From Steroidobacteraceae bacterium (GTDB lineage Bacteria; Pseudomonadota; Gammaproteobacteria; Steroidobacterales; Steroidobacteraceae): DNA of 35,075 bases. Both the position numbers and the translations under genes were made by a program. Location of the stretch: contig DATBCZ010000102.1 of the NCBI GenBank assembly GCA_036270175.1, positions 1 through 35,075 on the forward strand, written 5' to 3'. Under the pieces are notes generated by a model. It did not search any database and was not told the DNA's origin. It was given only the letters and a program-made list of their open reading frames with translations. Of this stretch, positions 4,250 through 29,481 are shown piece by piece; the stretch's first letter is position 1; every line of letters starts with the position of its first letter.

Positions 4250-5068
4250 TCATGCACCAAACCAGTACGCTATGGCGCGCATCTCGATGCTCGCGCGAGG
4301 TGCAACGCCAACGGGGCAGGTCGGGTCATTGAATGCCGTATGCGGCACGTGGTGAGGCTGTCTCGGATCGGAATCATTCGTTTTGAACACCAATGCCTCC
4401 TCGCGCGTCATGTTCGAGAAGTACGACCACCGATGTCGTGGGTTGTAGCGAACGACCAGCCCTTCGAATGACCATTCCGGTTTTCCGGGAACATCGAATA
4501 CCGCATCCGCTTCCATCAGATCTTCCTGCGACACACTGCGCGCGTCACAAACCGCAAGCGGCACATCTTGTGGCGGTGGGGAGAGAACTCGCCAGACGTT
4601 GTAATGCGCAAAGCGCCGGATCGGCACGCCTGCGTTCTGAGGACAGGAGCGGTGCGCGAATATCCTGGCGGTTGGATCGCTGACGTCGATGTGGATGAAG
4701 CGGGCCGGGCGCGAGTTGTTGAGACGGCCCGAGTCGGGTGAGCTCTCGCTGAAGCGCAGCACGCCCGGCGAACTCACTACCGCACGGTCGGCCCCGGAAA
4801 GCTCGGTCACGAGCCGCTCGATTTCGGCGGGATGAAGTTTCGCTACTTCCTGCGCATTGCGGAAATCCTCGACTGCGCTGCTGTGTTTGATGAGTGCAAA
4901 TCCCTCTGTCTCGAGAGTGGGCCAGACAGCCTGCGCGCGCGCATCGTCGATCAGAATCGTCCGCTCCTCCAGTGCAAGAACATCTCGGGAGTGATCATTC
5001 GCGTAGAAACGCGGTCGCTCGGCCATCGGGCCGGTGTAGTGGACTCGCCCTTCGACTGTGCGCTTCAT
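4250..5068 (-). CDS. CmcJ/NvfI-family protein (7-alpha-cephem methoxylase P8-chain-like oxidoreductase)
   Basis: ORF 4250..5158 trimmed to the ATG at 5068 (MKRTVEGRVHYTG...). From memory it resembles the CmcJ/NvfI family (ERPRFYAND..., ARFIHIDVSD, HYNVWRVL, PLAVCDARSV, RHRWSYFSNMTREEALVFK). The family name is recalled, not searched. Confidence 0.7.
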   Translation of the reverse strand: MKRTVEGRVHYTGPMAERPRFYANDHSRDVLALEERTILIDDARAQAVWPTLETEGFALIKHSSAVEDFRNAQEVAKLHPAEIERLVTELSGADRAVVSSPGVLRFSESSPDSGRLNNSRPARFIHIDVSDPTARIFAHRSCPQNAGVPIRRFAHYNVWRVLSPPPQDVPLAVCDARSVSQEDLMEADAVFDVPGKPEWSFEGLVVRYNPRHRWSYFSNMTREEALVFKTNDSDPRQPHHVPHTAFNDPTCPVGVAPRASIEMRAIAYWFGA

Positions 5069-5090
5069 GGACCTCAGCCCTCGCGGACGC

Positions 5091-5462
5091 TCAGAATAAT
5101 CGCGCACCGTTCGGAACGACCTGATCGGGTGAGAACAGCACAACCTCGCCGCTCTCATCCGGGAACCCCAGGGTCAATACTTCGGAGATGAATTTGCCGA
5201 TCTGGCGGGGCGGGAAATTCACCACCGCCGCGACCTGCCGTCCAAGGAGTGTCGCCGTTTCATAGTGGCGCGTGATCTGGGCGCTCGACTGCTTCACGCC
5301 GACGCCGGCGCCAAAGTCGATCCGCAGTTTCAGTGCAGGCTTGCGCGCCTCGGGGAAAGGTTCGGCAGCAACGATCGTCCCGACGCGAATGTCGACTGCC
5401 AGGAACTGATCGAATTTGATTTCTTGCGCCGCCGGCGCACGGGGGTCGTGTGTGAGGTGCAT
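5091..5462 (-). CDS. csaA: tRNA-binding protein (CsaA/YgjH, EMAP-type OB fold)
   Basis: ORF trimmed to the ATG at 5462 (MHLTHDPRAP...). Diagnostic stretch: FLAVDIRVGTIVAAEPFPEARKPALKLRIDFG...GVKQSSAQIT...LLGRQVAAVVNFPPRQIGKFISEVLTLG...PNGARLF. Confidence 0.85.
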   Translation of the reverse strand: MHLTHDPRAPAAQEIKFDQFLAVDIRVGTIVAAEPFPEARKPALKLRIDFGAGVGVKQSSAQITRHYETATLLGRQVAAVVNFPPRQIGKFISEVLTLGFPDESGEVVLFSPDQVVPNGARLF

Positions 5463-5610
5463 CGCGCGATTGTACGACACCCTCGAACGAGCGCCCCGGC
5501 CTGCACCGTAACCGTGCCGGCACGTGGCAGGGCGCACCCTTCGCAGTCATCAGCCTGGCTGGCCCACGCGTAAGTGCTTGTTTCATGGTTGCCAGGGTGC
5601 GCCGCAGCCC

Positions 5611-5626
5611 TGGCACGCCCGTTGCA
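5611..5626 (+). promoter_or_regulatory. Sigma-54 (RpoN) -24/-12 promoter, consensus-perfect
   Basis: cTGGCACGcccgTTGCAa matches YTGGCACG-N4-TTGCW at every conserved position. GG is at 5612-5613 and GC at 5624-5625, which is the obligatory spacing. It lies in the 257-bp spacer between csaA and the small ORF. Predicted +1 is about 5637. Confidence 0.55.
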
Positions 5627-5636
5627 AATATACCTG

Positions 5637-5721
5637 CACGGACACTGACTCGACGTCCGAACGCCGCCTGGCATAGCTCGTGACCCCCTCGCGATAGCTG
5701 TGTCCGGCGGCGTGTTTTTTT
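5637..5721 (+). ncRNA. Candidate RpoN-dependent small RNA (~85 nt), uncharacterised
   Basis: The stretch between the predicted sigma-54 start and the T7 tract has no ATG. It has a 5' stem-loop (CGGAC 5639-5643 / GTCCG 5655-5659), then a long terminator-type hairpin with a CCCCC apical loop. No + strand CDS is available to own this promoter or terminator. Confidence 0.4.
5661..5721 (+). terminator. Intrinsic-terminator-like long hairpin followed by G+T7
   Basis: Hand-paired: 5661-5683 with 5689-5713, 22 pairs (2 G-U), three 1-2 nt bulges, loop CCCCC (5684-5688), then gTTTTTTT (5714-5721). The T-run is only on the + strand. On the - strand the hairpin is followed by ttcggacg, so the orientation is +. 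It abuts the stop codon of the - strand small ORF. Confidence 0.6.
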
Positions 5722-5893
5722 ACAGCGGTGGTCCGCGTCGGCCCCGATACCCGTACAGCAGATAGACGACCACCAGTACCAGGACGATGAGCCCGATCGG
5801 CCCGAGTCCCCAGCCCGCGCCGAATCCCCAGTAGAGGCCGCCGCCGCCGCCGAACAACAGCAGCAGCAAAATCAGAACCAGTAGCAGATCCAT
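5720..5893 (-). CDS. Small hydrophobic membrane protein (57 aa), not in the ORF track
   Basis: Hand translation: MDLLLVLILLLLLFGGGGGLYWGFGAGWGLGPIGLIVLVLVVVYLLYGYRGRRGPPL*. ATG at 5893, TAA at 5720-5722. GGAG lies about 9 nt upstream of the ATG (ggggagattcacgctATG). Two predicted TM segments flank a Gly/Trp-rich linker, and the third codon position is GC-rich. The style is like DUF3309-type mini-proteins, but I cannot assert membership. Confidence 0.45.
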   Translation of the reverse strand: MDLLLVLILLLLLFGGGGGLYWGFGAGWGLGPIGLIVLVLVVVYLLYGYRGRRGPPL

Positions 5894-6039
5894 AGCGTGA
5901 ATCTCCCCAAGCAGTGTGGATTGTTTGATGCAAGTACCTGGTGTTAGTTAGAGCAAGGGGTGTGCCGCCGGTTTCTGGCGCCATACACGGACGTAACCGC
6001 TACAATGGCGTCCTCCGGCCACGCTTCAGCGAACCGAGG

Positions 6040-7206
6040 ATGACGGCCATGACTCCATCAGATACACCAGCGACAGAACCGACGGCGGCATCGCCCAGAT
6101 ACATGGCGCGCGCGTCGCGGGCATTGCTCGTACTTGCCACGGTGACGGTAGCGGCCCTCCTGTACTTCGGGCATGAGGTGTTCATTCCCGTCGCGCTGGC
6201 GCTTCTATTCGCCATGGTGCTCTCGAACGCGGTGGAGGGTTTGCACCGGCTGGGCCTGCCACGTGCCGTCGGCGCCTTCCTCATGTTGCTGCTTCTCGTC
6301 ACGGGTATCGGTGCCGCCACGGACGCGCTGATAGAGCCGGCGCAGAAATGGCTCGCCAGCGCGCCGACTACACTCCAGATGGTCGAACGCAAAATCCGCC
6401 CGGCCCAGCGTTGGATGCATCGCCTCGAGGGGCTTACCCACCGGGCGGGTGAGATGGGAGGACAGCGTTCGCCGACGCCCGGTGCGGGTGGCCCGACCCC
6501 GGCTCCGATAAGCGGCTCCGAGGTCCTGTCGGCGACGGGCGCAACGCTCGCGTCCATTGTCACGATCGTCATACTGACGTTATTTCTGCTGTCCGGTGGA
6601 CCGCCCATGTTGGCTCGCATGGCCGCGTCGCTGGGCTCGGATCTGCAGGCGGTGCACTACCTTCGGGCTATCGATGCCATACGCAGCGAGCTGGGTCGCT
6701 ATTACGGCATCATTGCGCTCATCAACGTCGGCTTGGGAGCGGCAACCGCCGTCGTGATGTTGTTCCTCGGCGTTCCGAATCCCTATCTCTGGGGAGCCGT
6801 CGCGGCGGTCCTGAACTTCATTCCCTATGTAGGCTCGGCAACAACTCTTCTGTTGCTCGCGGTGGTCGCGTTGGTGTCATTTGACGATCTCGGACGCGTC
6901 TTCGCCGTGGTCGGCAGCTATCTTGCCCTGGCTACGATCGAGGGCCAGGTGGTGCAGCCTCTCCTGGTCGGGAGGCGGCTCGACCTGAATCCCATTCTGG
7001 TCTTTCTCGCGGTGTGGTTTGGCGGTTGGTTCTGGGGCGTTGCCGGCATTGTCGTTGCCGTGCCCAGTCTGGTTGCCCTGAAGGTGGCCGCCACTCATAG
7101 CGCGCACGGCGGGACTGTCGTTGCTTTTCTCAGCCCGAGCGGCTCGAAGGCGTTGGAGTCGCTGCAGGGTCGGGTAACAGGAGTCCGCGCGCGCCTGCGA
7201 GCGTGA
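6040..7206 (+). CDS. AI-2E family transporter (PerM/UPF0118)
   Basis: ORF 5941..7206. The plausible start is ATG 6040 (MTAMTPSD) or ATG 6049, which has GAGGA 8 nt upstream. Multi-TM protein with family-typical features (FIPVALALLFAMVL..., NFIPYVGS, EGQVVQPLLVGRRLDLNPILVFLAVWFGGWFWGVAGIVVAVP). Confidence 0.85.
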   Translation: MTAMTPSDTPATEPTAASPRYMARASRALLVLATVTVAALLYFGHEVFIPVALALLFAMVLSNAVEGLHRLGLPRAVGAFLMLLLLVTGIGAATDALIEPAQKWLASAPTTLQMVERKIRPAQRWMHRLEGLTHRAGEMGGQRSPTPGAGGPTPAPISGSEVLSATGATLASIVTIVILTLFLLSGGPPMLARMAASLGSDLQAVHYLRAIDAIRSELGRYYGIIALINVGLGAATAVVMLFLGVPNPYLWGAVAAVLNFIPYVGSATTLLLLAVVALVSFDDLGRVFAVVGSYLALATIEGQVVQPLLVGRRLDLNPILVFLAVWFGGWFWGVAGIVVAVPSLVALKVAATHSAHGGTVVAFLSPSGSKALESLQGRVTGVRARLRA

Positions 7207-12942: not shown

Positions 12943-14922
12943 ATGACCCAACGAGCCAAACCTGCCGTCCGCCGATGGAATGCGATTGTCCGGATATCGG
13001 CGGCGTTGGTGTTGCTCGCCTGGCTGCCGCTACTGCCGGCACGCGCGCAGGATCCCGGGGCCGGAACGGCCGCCACGGCTACCACCCCCAATCCGGTCGA
13101 GGCGCTCATCGAGCGGGGCACGATGGCCATGTGGACCGATCCGGATGCGAGCAAGCGCGAGGCCGATGAAGCGCTCGAGCTGCTGAAGAAGAATCCGGAC
13201 CCCGATCGCGAGATCCGCGCGCGGCTCCTCATCTGCGACTACCAGTCCGAGCGCGATACAGCCGCCGCGCAGCGGGAAATCGCCGCCGCCACAGCCTTGC
13301 TGTCGCAGGCGACGCGGCAGGGACTGCGCGCCGGGATTCTCGACTGCGAGGGCGAGAGCCTGGAGAACTCGGGCGACAATACCAAGGCGATGGCGCAATA
13401 CACCGAGGCCGCGTCCGTCGCGACGAGCGAGCACGACGATGAGATGCTTGCGCTCAGCTTGTATTCCCGGGGCTACCTGTTGGGAGTCATGGGCGACTAT
13501 GCCACCGGGTTGATCGAGTTGCGGCGTGCCGATGCCCTGTTCGAGAAGCTCAAGAAGCCACTGCACGAGCTCGTGACTCTCAACAGTATCGCCACCATCT
13601 ACAATCGCATGGGCGATTATGTCCAGGCGCGCCACATCTATACGCGTGCCCTGGCGGCGCAGCGGCAGGCCGGGCTGCAGCGGGAACAGGTGGTCACGCT
13701 CTATAACCTGGGACGGGCGAACGAGAACCTGCACGACTGGGACGCCTCGCGCACGGCTTTTGCCGAAACACTCGAGATCAGCCGCAAGATCAACTACCTG
13801 CGTGGCGAGGCGTACGGCATGCGCGGCCTGGCGGCGGTCGCCAATGCGCTGGGCGATCCCGAGGGGGCGCTCGACACGCTCAAGAGCGCGGAAGTCATAC
13901 AGAAGCAGGTCCCGGATTCGCGCTTGCGCGCGCAGATTCAACTCGCGCGCGGCATCGCGCTCCACAAACTCCAACGTCTGCCCGAGAGCACCCAGGCACT
14001 CGAAAGCGCCCTGGTGGACTTTCGTCAGGCCGATGCGCTCTACGAGCTCAACCAGGTGTATTCCGAGCTCGCGGCCGTATATGCCGAAACGGGTAACTGG
14101 CGGGATGCCTACGCTCGCCAGGTCGATGCGAAGACGACCTCGGACAAGCTTCTCAAGAACCAGCTCGATCAGGGTTTCGCCACGTTGAAAGTCGAGTTCG
14201 ACACGGCGACCCAGGACAAAGAGAATGCGGCGCTCAAAAAGCAGAACGAGGCGAACCAGCGCGCACTCGCCCAGGCCCGCAGCGTGCGGCGCCTGCAGGC
14301 CACCGTCATCATTCTGACCATATCGCTCGTCTTGTTGTTGACACTACTGGCGGTATTCCAACATCGCAGCACCCTGCGAATGCACTTGCTCGCGATGACG
14401 GATGAGCTCACCGGCGTGCCGAATCGCCGCGCCGTGCTGGGCCGCCTCGACCCGCTGCTGCGCCGTGACGATCCCGCGGCGTGCTCCATTCTCATCGTCG
14501 ATATCGACTACTTCAAAGCCATCAACGATCAGCTCGGCCACTCCACCGGCGACGAGGTGTTGAAGGTGGTTGCCGCGACAGTGCGCGCCGCCGTGAGCGA
14601 GCCCGCCTTTTTCGGGCGTCTGGGCGGCGAGGAGTTCCTCATCGTGCTGCCGGCCACGGGCCTCAGCCAGGCGCGTGCTACCGCGCAGAGCTTTTGCGAG
14701 AAGATCGAAGCCATCGATACCTCACGTTGGTTTGGCGAGCGGCGCCACATCACGTGCAGTATCGGTGTGTCTACTTCCGTGCCTGGCAGGGATACGCCCA
14801 GCACCATGCTTCAGCGTGCCGACGCCGCTCTATACGCAGCCAAGCGCGGCGGCCGCAACTGCGTGAGGACGGAGCCGGCCCCCGAGCCCGACGTGGGCGC
14901 GGCGGCGGTGGTCGATGCCTGA
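12943..14922 (+). CDS. Periplasmic TPR sensor - TM - GGDEF diguanylate cyclase
   Basis: It has a signal/anchor (ISAALVLLAWLPLLPARAQD) and about 350 aa of TPR-like repeats. A coiled coil (FDTATQDKENAALKKQNEANQRAL) and a TM segment (VIILTISLVLLLTLLAVF) follow. The GGDEF domain is intact (DELTGVPNRR, DIDYFKAINDQLGH, RLGGEEFLIVLP, ADAALYAAKRGGRN). Confidence 0.9.
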   Translation: MTQRAKPAVRRWNAIVRISAALVLLAWLPLLPARAQDPGAGTAATATTPNPVEALIERGTMAMWTDPDASKREADEALELLKKNPDPDREIRARLLICDYQSERDTAAAQREIAAATALLSQATRQGLRAGILDCEGESLENSGDNTKAMAQYTEAASVATSEHDDEMLALSLYSRGYLLGVMGDYATGLIELRRADALFEKLKKPLHELVTLNSIATIYNRMGDYVQARHIYTRALAAQRQAGLQREQVVTLYNLGRANENLHDWDASRTAFAETLEISRKINYLRGEAYGMRGLAAVANALGDPEGALDTLKSAEVIQKQVPDSRLRAQIQLARGIALHKLQRLPESTQALESALVDFRQADALYELNQVYSELAAVYAETGNWRDAYARQVDAKTTSDKLLKNQLDQGFATLKVEFDTATQDKENAALKKQNEANQRALAQARSVRRLQATVIILTISLVLLLTLLAVFQHRSTLRMHLLAMTDELTGVPNRRAVLGRLDPLLRRDDPAACSILIVDIDYFKAINDQLGHSTGDEVLKVVAATVRAAVSEPAFFGRLGGEEFLIVLPATGLSQARATAQSFCEKIEAIDTSRWFGERRHITCSIGVSTSVPGRDTPSTMLQRADAALYAAKRGGRNCVRTEPAPEPDVGAAAVVDA

Positions 14923-27171: not shown

Positions 27172-29481
27172 ATGCGCAAAAAAATACTATGGGCTGCCTG
27201 CCTGGCCGCAATGGTGCTGATTGTCGGGGTGTTCTATGCGGCCCGAACCGTACTGAGCCACAGCTTCGCCAGTATCGAGGCCGATGAGGCCCGGCAGAGC
27301 AGCGAGCGGGTCCGGCAGGCGTTGCAGGCGGATCTGCACCAGCTCGATGTGGCAGTCGAGGACTATGCCCTTTGGGACGATTTCTACGACTTCGTGAAGT
27401 CCGGCGCACGAGAGCATATCGATCATTACTTCTCACGGCGGGGCCTGGACAACATTCACGTGGATGTCGTGTGGGTAGTCGACGATCAGGGCCGAACGCT
27501 CTTGCAGCTCGACACCGACGCCCCGGCCGGAGGGCTGACACAACTCAGCCCGGCTACGTTGGCGAGCCTGCGGAGTTATACCTCGCTGCTGCGGGCAACG
27601 CCGGATACCTTGAAACGGCCCGCGCAATTGGTGCGCATGCCGCTGGGCGCCATGGCTGTCGCGGTCCGCCCAATCAACCGCGATCTGCGGCCGGCCGCGA
27701 GCGCCGGCACCTTGGTGTTTGGACGTTATTTCCGCACCGGCCTCATTGAACGCCTGGAGCAGACCAGTCAGTCCCCGGTGCGGGCCACCTTGCTGGATGA
27801 GCGAGGCAGGCCGTTACTGAGCGTGCCCCCGGCAGTCGGCGAGTGGCTCGCCTCGGTCGGATCCGGCCCGGACCTGCTCATCCAGACGGGCGATCCCGCG
27901 ACTTTGCGCACTCACGCCCTGCTCCGTGACGTCGAGGGCCGGCCGCTGGTCGTACTCTCCACAACCGTCGCGCGCGCGGCGCTCCAGATCGGCAAGCGGA
28001 CCATCACCTGGGTGGTGGCGGCACTGCTGTGCGGTTTTGCCCTGGTGGTCGCGCTGTTGGTCTCATTGCTCAACAGGAGCTGGCGCAGTCGCGCGGCCGC
28101 CCAACGGCAGTGGCTCGATCACCAGCGCAAGATGTCGCGGCTCGCGCGTCGTGATGCGCTCACCGGTCTGCCTAACAGGCTGCACCTGCAGAGACTGCTG
28201 CCGCGCCTGTTGGCACGAGCCGCCCGCGACGGCTCACGCCTCGCGCTGTTGAATCTGGATCTCGATCACTTCAAAAACGTCAATGACTCGCTCGGTCATG
28301 GCAGCGGCGACCGGTTGCTGGCGGCCGTCGCGCAGCGTCTGCGCTCAGTGGTTGCGGCTCACGACATCGTGGTGCGGATGGGCGGTGACGAGTTCGTCAT
28401 CGTGGCGACCCTGCTGCCCGATGCAGTAATCGTTGACTCGATCGCGGAGCGCGTCCGCAGTGCCATCGCGGTGCCGCTCGACATCGATGGCGTTACTTTA
28501 TCGGTGGTGCCGAGCATCGGGATCAGTGTCTATCCCGAGGATGGTACCGATCCCGAGCAACTGCTCAAACACGCGGACATTGCGCTCTACACGGCGAAGG
28601 ACCGGGGTCGCGGTAATCATCAGTTCTACACACCGGAGATGAACGCGCGCCTGCGCGAGCGACTCGGACTCGAGCGCGCCCTGCGGCAGGCGCTCGACAA
28701 CAACGAACTGTTTGTCGAGTACCAGCCGTGCGTCGACCTGCAGACGTTGCGGACGGTGAGTCTCGAAGCGCTCATCCGCTGGCGCACCGATGACGGCACC
28801 TACATTCCGCCGTCGCGTTTCATCCCGATCGCGGAGCAGAGCAACCTCATCGTGGAGATCGGCGCTTATGTCCTCAGGCGAGTATGTTTGCAACTGAGCG
28901 AGTGGCAGCGTGAGCGCCTGCCGCTCGTGCCCGTGTCGGTCAATATCTCGGTGCGCCAGTTCGAGACGACCCCCCTGGCGAGTGTCGTTTCGGGACTGGC
29001 ACAGGAACTCGGCATCGACGCGAGCCTGCTGCATTTCGAGATTACCGAAAGCGCCGCCATGCAGAATTCGCAGCAACAGCTGGGCTCGCTCCAGGCGCTG
29101 CGTAACCTCGGCTCGCGGATCCTGATCGACGACTTCGGTACCGGGTATTCGAGCCTCAGCTATCTCAAGCACTTGCCCATCGATACGCTGAAGATCGACC
29201 GCGCGTTCGTGCGCGATATGGCTTCTGACGCCAACGACGCGGCGATCGTGCGTGCCATTGTCGGAGTGGCCAAGAGCCTTGGCCTCATGCTCGTGGCGGA
29301 AGGCATCGAGTCCGCGGAGCAGCTCGATTGTCTGCGCCGGCTGGGGTGCGAGTGCGGGCAGGGGTTTTTCTTCAGTCCGTCGGTATCCGCCGAGGATTGC
29401 CGCAATATGCTGTGGCAGTTGCGCGGCCCGCGCGCGTCGTTGGAGGCGCCCAAACTGCGTCTGTTGAACCCAGTGAACTAA
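27172..29481 (+). CDS. CHASE4 sensor - TM - GGDEF - EAL protein (bifunctional-type c-di-GMP cyclase/phosphodiesterase)
   Basis: 769 aa. An N-terminal TM segment is followed by a periplasmic domain with the CHASE4-typical EDYALWDDFYDFV, then a second TM. The GGDEF domain is RDALTGLPNR, DLDHFKNVNDSLGH, RMGGDEFVIV. The EAL domain is EALIRW, RFIPIAE, NIS, EITES, DDFGTGYSSLSYL, LKIDRAFV, EGIE, GQGFFF. Confidence 0.9.
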   Translation: MRKKILWAACLAAMVLIVGVFYAARTVLSHSFASIEADEARQSSERVRQALQADLHQLDVAVEDYALWDDFYDFVKSGAREHIDHYFSRRGLDNIHVDVVWVVDDQGRTLLQLDTDAPAGGLTQLSPATLASLRSYTSLLRATPDTLKRPAQLVRMPLGAMAVAVRPINRDLRPAASAGTLVFGRYFRTGLIERLEQTSQSPVRATLLDERGRPLLSVPPAVGEWLASVGSGPDLLIQTGDPATLRTHALLRDVEGRPLVVLSTTVARAALQIGKRTITWVVAALLCGFALVVALLVSLLNRSWRSRAAAQRQWLDHQRKMSRLARRDALTGLPNRLHLQRLLPRLLARAARDGSRLALLNLDLDHFKNVNDSLGHGSGDRLLAAVAQRLRSVVAAHDIVVRMGGDEFVIVATLLPDAVIVDSIAERVRSAIAVPLDIDGVTLSVVPSIGISVYPEDGTDPEQLLKHADIALYTAKDRGRGNHQFYTPEMNARLRERLGLERALRQALDNNELFVEYQPCVDLQTLRTVSLEALIRWRTDDGTYIPPSRFIPIAEQSNLIVEIGAYVLRRVCLQLSEWQRERLPLVPVSVNISVRQFETTPLASVVSGLAQELGIDASLLHFEITESAAMQNSQQQLGSLQALRNLGSRILIDDFGTGYSSLSYLKHLPIDTLKIDRAFVRDMASDANDAAIVRAIVGVAKSLGLMLVAEGIESAEQLDCLRRLGCECGQGFFFSPSVSAEDCRNMLWQLRGPRASLEAPKLRLLNPVN

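What the first reader, a model, noticed from the sequence alone, without database searches (positions are those of the whole stretch)
5502..5721. Consensus-perfect sigma-54 promoter driving an ORF-free, highly structured ~85-nt unit: candidate RpoN-dependent sRNA
Seen in the sequence:
- On the + strand, cTGGCACGcccgTTGCAa (5610-5627) matches the RpoN -24/-12 consensus at every conserved base with the strict GG-N10-GC spacing. The predicted +1 is about 5637.
- Downstream there is no ATG at all. There is a 5-bp stem-loop (5639-5659), then a 53-nt hairpin (5661-5713; 22 pairs, apical loop CCCCC), then G+T7 (5714-5721).
- The T-run is only on the + strand, so the terminator is oriented for a + transcript. 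Both flanking genes (csaA, small ORF) are on the - strand, and no + CDS lies upstream.
- My rough hand estimate, using about 1/3 per G/C and 1/6 per A/T, gives well under 0.1 chance matches to the fixed promoter positions on both strands of this window.

Inference:
- This is a self-contained promoter-RNA-terminator module analogous to known sigma-54-dependent sRNAs (Qrr, GlmY, NrsZ).
- The exposed GUGACCCCCUCGC loop is complementary to G-rich Shine-Dalgarno sequences, as in anti-SD seed loops.
- Palindromic sequences lie at enhancer distance (-135 to -114): TGCACC at 5502-5507 and GTGCCGGCAC at 5514-5523. They could be bEBP sites.
- Alternative: an RpoN-dependent attenuated leader that reads antisense through the small ORF toward the AI-2E gene.
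Basis: partly seen in the sequence, partly recalled or inferred. Interest (0 to 1): 0.72.

Follow-up and report, generated by a model that had tools for sequence, protein, structure and literature searches.

The report
New sigma-54-driven small RNA gene
This gap between genes holds a real, conserved gene for a small RNA of about 85 nt in soil Steroidobacteraceae bacteria, with a sigma-54 promoter, an NtrC-type (nitrogen-stress) enhancer and its own terminator; it is a new family of a well-known kind of bacterial regulator.

Summary
TGGCACG-N4-TTGCA (5611-5626, +) is the only exact match in the window. The downstream 85 nt have no ATG and fold into a 5-bp hairpin plus a 22-bp terminator hairpin with a CCCCC apex and a U7 tail.

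It is not chance. A metagenome scan used only the loop plus a T-run and found 69 family members. All 68 with enough upstream sequence carry TGGCA[CT]-N5-TTGC at a fixed distance, and the spacer bases vary. The terminator stem covaries (11 of 17 outer pairs change on both sides; 92% of cells paired against 24-50% in slid controls).

Upstream lie:
- a conserved NtrC-type palindrome (GCAC-N7-GTGC, 5502-5518);
- a second half-site exactly 31 bp away;
- an IHF-like box at about -60.

This layout resembles glnAp2. Flanking genes differ between sub-lineages and are sometimes convergent, so this is a stand-alone sRNA gene, not a leader.

Rfam 15 has no match, and no paper describing it was found. The most likely mechanism is inferred: nitrogen limitation activates NtrC, sigma-54 transcribes the sRNA, and the invariant GUGACCCCCUC loop pairs with G-rich ribosome-binding sites. 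Expression, regulator and targets are untested.

Verdict: a new member of a known kind, of moderate interest.

The parts
5502..5518 (.). Upstream activator site 1: TGCACCGTAACCGTGCC, centred about -127. It has the NtrC-type core GCAC-N7-GTGC and matches 10 of the 14 specified bases of TGCACCAnnnTGGTGCA.
   Evidence: An exact GCAC-N7-GTGC is present in 47 of 58 family loci, against 0.3 expected from shuffles. Its position is fixed: -108 +/-1 in most short-form loci and -133 +/-1 in most long-form loci, measured from the T of TGGCAC. The inner 7 bases vary. The NtrC consensus comes from PMC8743547 and PMC4987338.
5533..5549 (.). Upstream activator site 2: CGCACCCTTCGCAGTCA, centred about -96. 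The left half-site is conserved and the right half is degenerate.
   Evidence: A second GC[AG]C lies exactly 31 nt (three helical turns) after the first GCAC in 34 of 47 loci. It is visible as a conserved block.
5571..5583 (.). IHF-like box TAAGTGCTTGTTT. Its reverse complement AAACAAGCACTTA matches WATCAANNNNTTR at 8 of 9 specified bases. It is centred about -60, between the enhancer and the promoter.
   Evidence: 26 of 60 loci have at most 1 mismatch in the scanned interval, against 0.18 expected, and 24 of those 26 sit at -40 to -43 from the T of TGGCAC. 44 of 60 have at most 2 mismatches, against about 3.2 expected. The IHF consensus is taken from general knowledge.
5611..5626 (+). Sigma-54 -24/-12 promoter TGGCACGcccgTTGCA (GG at 5612-5613, GC at 5624-5625).
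   Evidence: It is the only exact match in the window, with 0 of 100 shuffles matching. It is present in 68 of 68 evaluable metagenome members, although the search pattern did not include it, and the spacer is variable. In 692 kb of fetched loci, 72 of 77 matches to the pattern belong to this RNA.
5637..5721 (+). Predicted sRNA, about 85 nt. The predicted +1 is at 5636-5638, which is 12 nt after the -12 C. The 3' end lies in the U7 run.
   Evidence: Fold. Covariance model R1 scores it 103 bits (E = 1e-23) and finds a single copy in the window. There is no ATG. No Rfam family matches.
5639..5659 (+). 5' hairpin SL1 (CGGAC / GUCCG, 11-nt loop).
   Evidence: The stem is kept in all short forms. 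One sub-group replaces it with a different hairpin, CGGAGAUUG...CAAUAUCCG. In long forms, RNAalifold predicts 7 SL1 pairs, 4 of which show changes on both sides.
5661..5713 (+). Terminator hairpin SL2: 22 pairs with an apical CCCCC loop at 5684-5688.
   Evidence: All 54 distinct hairpins fold the same way. 92% of cells are paired, against 24-50% in slid controls. 11 of 17 outer pairs change on both sides, and 0 of 500 shuffles reach the observed values.
5679..5693 (+). Invariant block CGUGACCCCCUCGCG (inner stem plus C5 loop), the putative seed.
   Evidence: It is invariant in 8 distinct sequences found through neighbouring genes and not through this motif. L094 carries GUGACCCCCUC in both hairpin loops. 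In the metagenome set it was fixed by the search pattern, so that set cannot test it.
5715..5721 (+). T7 run of the intrinsic terminator. It overlaps the TAA stop codon (5722-5720) of the convergent DUF3309 gene.

Best explanation
Window 5502-5721 is a complete, independent gene for a trans-acting small RNA of about 85 nt in a Steroidobacteraceae-like gammaproteobacterium.

Shown by sequence comparison:
- The enhancer, IHF-like box and sigma-54 promoter are arranged like the glnAp2 promoter. There are two activator sites 31 bp apart at about -127 and -96, an IHF-like bend site at about -60, and a consensus -24/-12 promoter.
- The RNA has two hairpins, and the second is a strong intrinsic terminator.
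- A 15-nt block around the C5 apical loop does not vary.

Inferred:
- The activator is NtrC, so the RNA would be made under nitrogen limitation. Phosphorylated NtrC would bind the GCAC-N7-GTGC sites, IHF would loop the DNA, and NtrC's ATPase would open the closed sigma-54 complex.
- Transcription would start at about 5637 and stop in the U7 run.
- The RNA would act by pairing its exposed CCCCCUC loop with G-rich sequences (GAGGGGG-like) at ribosome-binding sites of target mRNAs, repressing translation. The hairpin and U-tail could serve as an Hfq handle.

My sub-probabilities:
- real sigma-54-dependent stand-alone sRNA gene: about 0.9;
- activator is NtrC and the signal is nitrogen: about 0.6;
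- C-rich loop is a base-pairing seed for G-rich ribosome-binding sites: about 0.5.
For: Promoter:
- It is a perfect and unique match in the window.
- It is conserved in 68 of 68 evaluable family members retrieved with a pattern that did not contain it. The distance to the RNA is fixed and the spacer bases vary.
- The pattern is otherwise rare: 5 other matches in 692 kb.

RNA:
- The fold is stable and specific to the + strand.
- The terminator stem covaries, and so does SL1 in the long forms.
- All 54 distinct hairpins keep the same shape.

Enhancer:
- GCAC-N7-GTGC occurs in 47 of 58 loci at a fixed position, against 0.3 expected.
- A second half-site lies exactly 31 nt away in 34 of 47 loci.
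- An IHF-like box sits at a fixed position.
- The NtrC consensus TGCACCAnnnTGGTGCA is documented.

Independence:
- Four different gene neighbourhoods were found. The downstream gene is convergent in this window and in one long-form group.
- The module is kept in L004, where csaA is reduced to a remnant.

Seed:
- The 15-nt block is invariant in sequences retrieved through neighbouring genes.
- It is duplicated in both loops of L094.
- The long-form SL1 loop also carries a conserved GCCUC.

Precedents: NrsZ is an NtrC- and RpoN-dependent sRNA. sX13 uses C-rich loops against G-rich motifs in mRNAs.
Against: - There is no expression evidence of any kind. The +1, the 3' end, RpoN dependence and NtrC dependence are all predicted.
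- Site 1 matches only 10 of 14 specified NtrC consensus bases, and the right half of site 2 is degenerate. Another NtrC-family activator could bind here.
- No nitrogen-metabolism gene lies in the window or next to the RNA in any locus.
- I could not obtain a known NtrC target from this lineage to compare sites.
- In the predicted fold only CCCCC is unpaired, and GUGA/UCGC are in a stem.
- No convincing target was found in about 700 kb of available sequence.
- In the metagenome set, loop invariance was imposed by the search pattern. The set retrieved without the motif has only 8 distinct sequences from fairly close relatives.
- The element is absent from the same locus in several close relatives (L001, L003, L005, L130, L131).
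Confidence: 0.8

Rival explanations
1. The RNA is a cis-acting 5' leader or attenuator. The sigma-54 promoter would really drive the AI-2E transporter gene, and the hairpin plus U7 would be a regulated terminator that is read through under some condition.
For: - The AI-2E gene lies downstream in the same orientation in 16 short-form loci.
- In L002, L004, L036, L039, L081 and L101 its ORF begins only about 30-55 nt after the T-run. That leaves little room for a separate promoter.
Against: - In this window, and in at least L063, L065, L071, L075 and L091, a convergent DUF3309 gene sits between the RNA and the AI-2E gene.
- The AI-2E gene has its own conserved TACAAT box, which is also present in relatives that lack the RNA.
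- Other sub-groups have unrelated downstream genes (alpha/beta-hydrolase-like, M16-peptidase-like, ankyrin-like) or a convergent LytTR regulator.
- Most AI-2E loci (28 of 31) lack the element.
- The terminator hairpin alone folds at -36.8 kcal/mol with 22 pairs and a U7 tail. The minimum-free-energy and centroid folds coincide, and I saw no competing anti-terminator pairing.
Confidence: 0.08
2. The module is a sigma-54-dependent sRNA, but the activator is another enhancer-binding protein rather than NtrC, so the inducing signal is not nitrogen limitation.
For: - Site 1 deviates from the enterobacterial NtrC consensus at 4 of 14 specified positions, and site 2 is half-degenerate.
- No gene linked to nitrogen metabolism is nearby in any locus.
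- No enhancer-binding protein gene is adjacent in any locus.
Against: - GCAC-N7-GTGC is the core of the NtrC site. As far as I recall, the sites of other enhancer-binding proteins do not share it: NifA TGT-N10-ACA, GlrR TGTC-N10-GACA, LuxO TTGCA-N3-TGCAA, CbrB TGTTAC-N14-GTAACA. This is from memory and was not tested.
- Two sites three helical turns apart at about -127 and -96 resemble the glnAp2 arrangement (general knowledge).
Confidence: 0.3
3. The hairpin is primarily the 3' end or terminator of the convergent DUF3309 mRNA, and the sigma-54 box upstream is incidental.
For: The DUF3309 stop codon overlaps the A7/T7 run, and the hairpin follows it directly on the - strand.
Against: - On the - strand the hairpin is not followed by a U-run, and it folds less well there.
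- Promoter, SL1 and hairpin occur together in loci without DUF3309 (L002, L004, L126, L132 and all long forms).
- DUF3309 occurs without the hairpin in L003 and L005.
- Promoter conservation in 68 of 68 evaluable members cannot be incidental.
Confidence: 0.02
4. The sRNA acts by binding or titrating a protein that recognises the conserved GUGA-CCCCC-UCGC hairpin, rather than by base-pairing with mRNAs.
For: - The inner stem is conserved in sequence, not merely in pairing.
- The whole hairpin unit is duplicated in L094, as in the multi-module sponges RsmZ and CrcZ.
- No target was found.
Against: - There is only one conserved module in most members.
- There are no GGA or CA-rich motifs of the known Csr/Rsm or Crc/Hfq sponges (sequence).
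- C-rich apical loops have documented base-pairing roles in sX13 and, from my own knowledge, in RNAIII and RepG.
Confidence: 0.1

Closest known systems
NrsZ (Pseudomonas nitrogen-regulated sRNA)
   Same: It is a stand-alone sRNA transcribed from a TGGCAC-N5-TTGCW RpoN promoter, activated by NtrB/C under nitrogen limitation. Its function resides in a conserved hairpin loop (PMC4253122).
   Different: - NrsZ lies directly downstream of ntrC. This RNA lies between csaA and DUF3309/AI-2E, and elsewhere in other lineages.
- NrsZ is about 226 nt with 1-6 repeated modules that are processed, and its loop motif is ACAGGCAG. It activates rhlA.
- This RNA is about 85-120 nt, with one conserved C-rich loop inside its own terminator.
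- There is no Rfam match to any family.
sX13 (Xanthomonadaceae sRNA)
   Same: It is a highly structured gammaproteobacterial sRNA whose activity depends on CCCC/CCCCC motifs in apical hairpin loops. These motifs pair with G-rich motifs near the ribosome-binding sites of mRNAs (PMC3771888).
   Different: - sX13 is always downstream of polA and is restricted to Xanthomonadaceae.
- Its level is unchanged in medium lacking nitrogen, and no sigma-54 promoter is reported in the passages I read.
- It has three C-rich loops, against one here (two in L094).
- I did not have the sX13 sequence, so homology is untested beyond the absence of any relevant Rfam hit.
Qrr, GlmY/GlmZ and CrcZ (other sigma-54-dependent sRNAs)
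   Same: Each has a -24/-12 promoter with an upstream enhancer-binding protein site and often IHF, a short non-coding transcript and an intrinsic terminator.
   Different: - The activators differ (LuxO, GlrR/QseF, CbrB), with different enhancer sequences.
- The RNA sequences, structures and mechanisms are unrelated.
- None matched in cmscan.
The E. coli glnAp2 promoter
   Same: It has two strong NtrC sites about 32 bp apart, roughly 100-140 bp upstream of a sigma-54 promoter (general knowledge). Here the sites are 31 bp apart at about -127 and -96, and the core GCAC-N7-GTGC is the same.
   Different: It drives an sRNA rather than glutamine synthetase. An IHF-like box is present here, as in glnHp2-type promoters. 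The second site is half-degenerate.
RepG (Helicobacter) and the RNAIII terminator hairpin
   Same: The seed lies in the C/U-rich loop of the sRNA's own terminator hairpin and targets G-rich stretches (my own knowledge; the HPnc5490 loop UCCCCCU is mentioned in PMC3771888).
   Different: The taxa, promoters and sequences are unrelated. For this RNA the role of the loop is only inferred.

Membership tests
Sigma-54 (RpoN) dependent promoter | GG at -24 and GC at -12 with exact spacing; consensus TGGCAC-N5-TTGCW. | tested here: met
   16 of 16 consensus positions match at 5611-5626, the only exact match in the window, with 0 of 100 shuffles matching.
Sigma-54 (RpoN) dependent promoter | Hexamers conserved and spacer free in orthologous loci. 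| tested here: met
   68 of 68 evaluable metagenome members, plus L002, L004, L105, L110, L126 and L132. The spacer varies.
Sigma-54 (RpoN) dependent promoter | Upstream enhancer for an AAA+ activator, with or without an IHF site. | tested here: met
   Conserved palindrome, second half-site and IHF-like box at fixed positions.
Sigma-54 (RpoN) dependent promoter | Transcription abolished without RpoN. | not testable with these tools
   No expression data. rpoN is not in the window.
NtrC regulon | Binding site matching TGCACCAnnnTGGTGCA. | tested here: inconclusive
   Site 1 matches 10 of 14 specified bases. The core GCAC-N7-GTGC is exact in 47 of 58 loci. Site 2 matches only in its left half. 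No reference NtrC site from this lineage was available.
NtrC regulon | Induced by nitrogen limitation and dependent on ntrC. | not testable with these tools
   No expression data. No nitrogen-metabolism gene is in the window or next to the RNA.
Intrinsic (Rho-independent) terminator | G+C-rich hairpin directly followed by a U-run on the transcribed strand. | tested here: met
   22-pair hairpin at 5661-5713, then G and U7. The U-run was part of the search pattern in the metagenome set. It is also present in all sequences retrieved through neighbouring genes.
Any Rfam 15 family (including Qrr, GlmY/Z, CrcZ, CcsR and ErsA) | cmscan score at or above the family's gathering threshold. | tested here: not met
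   There were no hits at gathering thresholds in the whole window. The best sub-threshold hits are noise: miRNA models at 18 bits against thresholds of 93 and 124, CcsR1 at 12.3 against 65.3, and ErsA at 16.4 against 50, the last two on long forms.
NrsZ | Encoded downstream of ntrC; repeated stem-loops exposing ACAGGCAG. | tested here: not met
   The neighbours are csaA, DUF3309 and AI-2E. The loop is CCCCC and there are no repeats. NrsZ features are from PMC4253122.
sX13 | Located downstream of polA in Xanthomonadaceae; three hairpins with 4C/4C/5C loops. | tested here: not met
   The locus and taxon differ. There is one 5C loop. sX13 features are from PMC3771888. Sequence homology was not tested because no sX13 sequence was at hand.
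Trans-acting base-pairing sRNA | Independent transcription unit whose flanking genes are not conserved. | tested here: met
   At least four neighbourhoods, some with convergent downstream genes.
Trans-acting base-pairing sRNA | Demonstrated seed-target pairing, with or without Hfq dependence. | not testable with these tools
   Scans for complementary ribosome-binding sites in the window and about 700 kb of loci gave nothing above background.

The most novel reading that the evidence does not exclude
This RNA could be the main nitrogen-starvation riboregulator of Steroidobacterales, an abundant and almost unstudied lineage of soil gammaproteobacteria. It would use the loop of its own terminator as an anti-Shine-Dalgarno seed. 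In genomes like this one it would form a convergent pair with a second sigma-54 unit, the DUF3309 small membrane protein gene. That gene has its own conserved GG-N10-GC element. The two transcripts would meet at one shared hairpin and could control each other through antisense overlap or transcriptional interference.
Probability: 0.15. Interest if true: 0.65.

Novelty: new member of a known kind. Interest (0 to 1): 0.55.

Why it matters
Few sigma-54-dependent sRNAs are known: Qrr, GlmY/Z, CrcZ/Y, NrsZ, NfiS and a few others. Those I know of were found in cultured model bacteria.

This one is a cleanly delimited new family. It has at least 63 distinct sequences, a short and a long architecture, and a calibrated covariance model. 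It comes from Steroidobacteraceae-like bacteria that are common in soil and rhizosphere metagenomes and have no described RNA regulators.

The promoter region carries a textbook enhancer, IHF box and -24/-12 layout, so it gives a directly testable hypothesis about the inducing signal (nitrogen limitation through NtrC). The invariant C-rich loop gives a testable seed.

The case also shows that a sigma-54 box followed by an ORF-free terminator is a productive search key for sRNAs in uncultured lineages. It does not change any concept; it adds a well-supported member to a known class.

Tried and rejected
1. Rfam. I ran gathering thresholds on the whole window, and E-value mode on 5400-6000 and on two long-form loci. 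Nothing relevant appeared.
2. Paralogues. The loop motif and model R1 found a single copy in the window. R1 found nothing credible in 28 other AI-2E loci. The weak L013 hit (14.7 bits, E = 0.6) was not pursued.
3. Plasmid collection (blastn, distant mode) and a viral-contig pattern scan found no match.
4. Short-form MAFFT alignment with RNAalifold showed little covariation, because the sequences are close and indels shift the 3' arm. A hairpin-only alignment of both forms gave clear covariation.
5. Model-fitted alignment A4 mixed strands and mis-placed SL1 of the long forms, so I did not use it.
6. Targets. I scanned for sequences complementary to the seed near start codons in the window and in all loci. 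Hits were at background level. The 7-mer GCGAGGG lies just upstream of the start of the ORF at 4250-5071, and GAGGGGG lies at the ribosome-binding site of an ankyrin-like gene next to the RNA in L086. Both are noted as leads only.
7. Reference NtrC targets. I looked for glnA, glnK or amtB with the same enhancer in the fetched loci and found none. The only other promoter with both motifs (L079, 3260) precedes a gene with no obvious link to nitrogen metabolism.
8. More distant LytTR loci (71-76% identity) lack the RNA, so they gave no extra divergent homologues.
9. A literature search for a Steroidobacter sRNA or a described sigma-54/NtrC sRNA of this type found nothing.
Full report
**1. The observation**

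The sequence is as described. On the + strand, cTGGCACGcccgTTGCAa lies at 5610-5627. TGGCACG-N4-TTGCW has one exact match in the 35-kb window on both strands, and none of 100 dinucleotide-preserving shuffles gave any match. With two mismatches allowed there are 6 matches against 7.1 expected, so only the perfect site is remarkable.

The energy is -43.1 kcal/mol, z = -5.3, and 0 of 200 shuffles fold as well. The opposite strand folds less well (-38.1 kcal/mol, z = -2.9), because several pairs are G-U on the + strand.

There is no ATG in the unit. No sigma-70-like promoter was found nearby. The neighbours are:
- csaA (5091-5462, - strand; tRNA_bind);
- a 57-aa DUF3309 ORF (5720-5893, - strand);
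- an AI-2E family transporter gene (6040-7206, + strand).

**2. Relatives found by synteny**

The AI-2E protein retrieved 31 loci from reference genomes. The closest are Steroidobacteraceae or unclassified gammaproteobacterial MAGs. Two of them, L002 and L004, carry the element between csaA and the AI-2E gene.

In the three-way alignment the surrounding intergenic DNA has diverged, but several islands are conserved:
- GCAC-N7-GTGC;
- a GTGCACC block;
- GTAAGTnnTTGTTT;
- CTGGCACG-N4-TTGCAA, with three different spacers;
- CACGGACACT;
- both arms of the long hairpin, with substitutions;
- an unchanged CGTGACCCCCTCGCG;
- the T-run.

In L004 csaA is reduced to a remnant, yet the RNA module is intact. 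L001, L003 and L005 are equally close relatives and lack the element at this locus. A covariance model finds it in none of the other 28 AI-2E loci and only once in the window.

**3. A family, and an unbiased test of the promoter**

I scanned the metagenome collection with CGTGACCCCCTCGCG-N15-32-TTTTTT. This pattern contains neither the promoter, nor SL1, nor the outer stem. It gave 73 contigs, and the same pattern gave none in 2.9 million viral contigs.

Four of the 73 hits are unrelated, which leaves 69 members. In 68 of them TGGCA[CT]-N5-TTGC[ATC] lies upstream at a fixed distance from the loop motif. The remaining one, L038, is cut by the contig end. The five spacer bases vary freely. Across all 692 kb of fetched DNA the promoter pattern occurs 77 times, and 72 of those belong to this RNA.

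There are 63 distinct sequences in two architectures:
- a short form like the window's, with two hairpins and 46-57 nt between the -12 box and the loop motif;
- a long form with three hairpins and 69-88 nt.

The long form's first loop carries a conserved CGCCUCU.

**4. Structure**

All 54 distinct terminator hairpins fold into the same shape with the C5 apex. I aligned 50 hairpins with MAFFT and named the structure myself. On that alignment:
- 92% of cells form standard pairs, against 24-50% when the partners are slid;
- 11 of the 17 outer pairs show changes on both sides;
- none of 500 shuffles reaches the observed values.

The inner five pairs and the loop were fixed by the search pattern, so the metagenome set says nothing about them.

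To test the loop without that bias, I collected the RNA through neighbouring genes instead. I used csaA homologues and a LytTR regulator next to a long form. In the 8 distinct sequences obtained this way, the 15-nt block CGUGACCCCCUCGCG is invariant, while flanking stem positions, SL1 loop bases and the promoter spacer vary. In L094 both hairpins carry GUGA-CCCCC-UC with C5 apices. In the long forms, 4 of the 7 predicted SL1 pairs show changes on both sides.

**5. The promoter region is an enhancer, IHF-like box and sigma-54 unit**

Upstream of the -24 box there are three conserved elements.

- *Site 1.* An exact GCAC-N7-GTGC occurs in 47 of 58 loci with enough sequence. It lies at -108 +/-1 in most short forms and -133 +/-1 in most long forms, measured from the T of TGGCAC. 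Shuffles predict 0.3 loci, and the inner seven bases vary. In the window this is TGCACCGTAACCGTGCC (5502-5518). The published NtrC consensus is TGCACCAnnnTGGTGCA (PMC8743547; PMC4987338). The window site matches 10 of its 14 specified bases, including the whole core.
- *Site 2.* A second GC[AG]C lies exactly 31 nt downstream in 34 of 47 loci. In the window it is at 5533-5549. Its right half is degenerate.
- *IHF-like box.* TAAGTGCTTGTTT (5571-5583) matches the reverse complement of WATCAANNNNTTR at 8 of 9 specified bases. 26 of 60 loci have at most 1 mismatch against 0.18 expected, and nearly all of these sit at -40 to -43 from the T of TGGCAC.

With +1 at about 5637, the sites are centred near -127, -96 and -60. 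This resembles the glnAp2/glnHp2 type of promoter (general knowledge). The GTGCCGGCAC palindrome is not the conserved unit.

**6. Stand-alone gene or leader?**

Gene neighbourhoods differ between sub-groups. Apart from csaA, AI-2E, LytTR and TfoX, the gene names below are my reading of the protein sequences and were not checked against Pfam.
- One short group lies between csaA and (DUF3309)/AI-2E.
- Another short group lies between a TauE-like permease and an alpha/beta-hydrolase-like gene.
- One long group lies between a DUF4097-like gene and an M16-peptidase-like gene.
- Another long group lies between TfoX and a convergent LytTR regulator.

In this window the next gene is convergent. The AI-2E gene has a TACAAT box that is also conserved in relatives without the RNA. 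I saw no competing anti-terminator pairing. This argues for an independent sRNA gene.

One caveat remains. In six relatives the AI-2E ORF starts 30-55 nt after the T-run, so some read-through into that gene cannot be excluded there.

**7. Taxonomy and novelty**

The genome-derived carriers are Steroidobacteraceae or unclassified gammaproteobacterial MAGs. The metagenome contigs' sample names are consistent with soil and rhizosphere studies, but I did not check this. Rfam 15 has no matching family for either form. There is no match in plasmids. Literature searches found no description.

The kind is known. NrsZ of Pseudomonas is an NtrC- and RpoN-dependent sRNA, but it sits next to ntrC, has repeated processed modules and a different loop motif. 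sX13 of Xanthomonadaceae works through C-rich loops against G-rich mRNA motifs, but it lies downstream of polA and is not induced by lack of nitrogen.

**8. Mechanism, with status of each step**

Shown by comparison:
- a conserved -24/-12 promoter, a tandem activator site and an IHF-like box;
- a covarying terminator hairpin;
- an invariant loop block;
- independence from the neighbouring genes.

Inferred:
- NtrC is the activator, and hence nitrogen limitation is the signal (about 0.6).
- Transcription starts at about 5637 and ends at 5715-5721.
- The CCCCCUC loop, and in long forms the GCCUC loop of SL1, pairs with GAGG(GGG)-type ribosome-binding sites to repress translation (about 0.5).
- Hfq uses the terminator and U-tail (speculative).

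I found no convincing target in the limited sequence available.

**9. Verdict**

It is a new sRNA family of a known class. It has strong comparative support but no expression data, and it is of moderate interest.

Noticed in passing
window 5952-5967 (- strand), upstream of the DUF3309 ORF at 5720-5893: The small DUF3309 membrane-protein gene has its own sigma-54-type element, CGGCAC-ACCCC-TTGCT, about 58 nt before its ATG. Most of 11 other loci with DUF3309 read GG[C/T]AC-N5-TTGC at the same place, with varying spacers; two (L113, L040) deviate in the -24 half. The sRNA and DUF3309 would then be two convergent sigma-54 units meeting at one hairpin.
   Followed up: partly
window 5714-5722: The TAA stop codon of DUF3309 (5722-5720, - strand) lies inside the T7/A7 run of the sRNA terminator. 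The hairpin may therefore also serve as the 3' end of the DUF3309 mRNA, and any read-through would produce RNA antisense to the sRNA.
   Followed up: no
window 5999-6009; L001 3971-3981; L003 and L005 about 40 nt before the AI-2E start: A conserved CGcTACAATgg block, which looks like a sigma-70 -10 box, precedes the AI-2E gene both in loci with the sRNA and in loci without it.
   Followed up: no
L004 3623-3700: In this MAG csaA is reduced to a remnant: its first few codons are joined to its last 21 codons. The adjacent sRNA module is intact.
   Followed up: partly
L094 4448-4534 (- strand): This divergent family member has both hairpins carrying GUGA-CCCCC-UC with C5 apical loops, so the putative seed module is duplicated.
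   Followed up: yes
L079 793-893 (- strand): This distant variant has a TGGCAT-N5-TTGCT promoter, a different 5' domain and a completely different 21-bp perfect stem. It keeps the same CGUGACCCCCUCGCG apex.
   Followed up: partly
window 5502-5518 relative to the csaA start at 5462: Activator site 1 lies only 40 nt upstream of the divergent csaA start codon, so activator binding could also affect csaA transcription. This is speculation.
   Followed up: no
window 5072-5090 (- strand), just upstream of the ORF at 4250-5071: The spacer between csaA and the next ORF reads GCGAGGGCUGAGGUCCAUG. GCGAGGG is complementary to CCCUCGC in the sRNA loop region. The same sequence occurs in L074. It is a 7-mer match at background frequency, so it is only a lead.
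   Followed up: partly
L052, reverse-strand offset 256 (about 13850-13865 in + coordinates); L023, reverse-strand offset 3904 (about 5098-5113): Two further perfect sigma-54 boxes are not linked to this RNA. One is followed by an A-rich stretch with no obvious ORF. The other is followed by a sequence containing ...GAUCCCCUCGAUC.... Either could be another sigma-54 sRNA.
   Followed up: no
window 12943-14922 and 27172-29481: Two c-di-GMP signalling proteins are encoded here (TPR-GGDEF and CHASE4-GGDEF-EAL). BipA, GTP cyclohydrolase I, an OpgD/MdoG glucan protein and an efflux pair are also present. There are no nitrogen-metabolism genes anywhere in the window.
   Followed up: no
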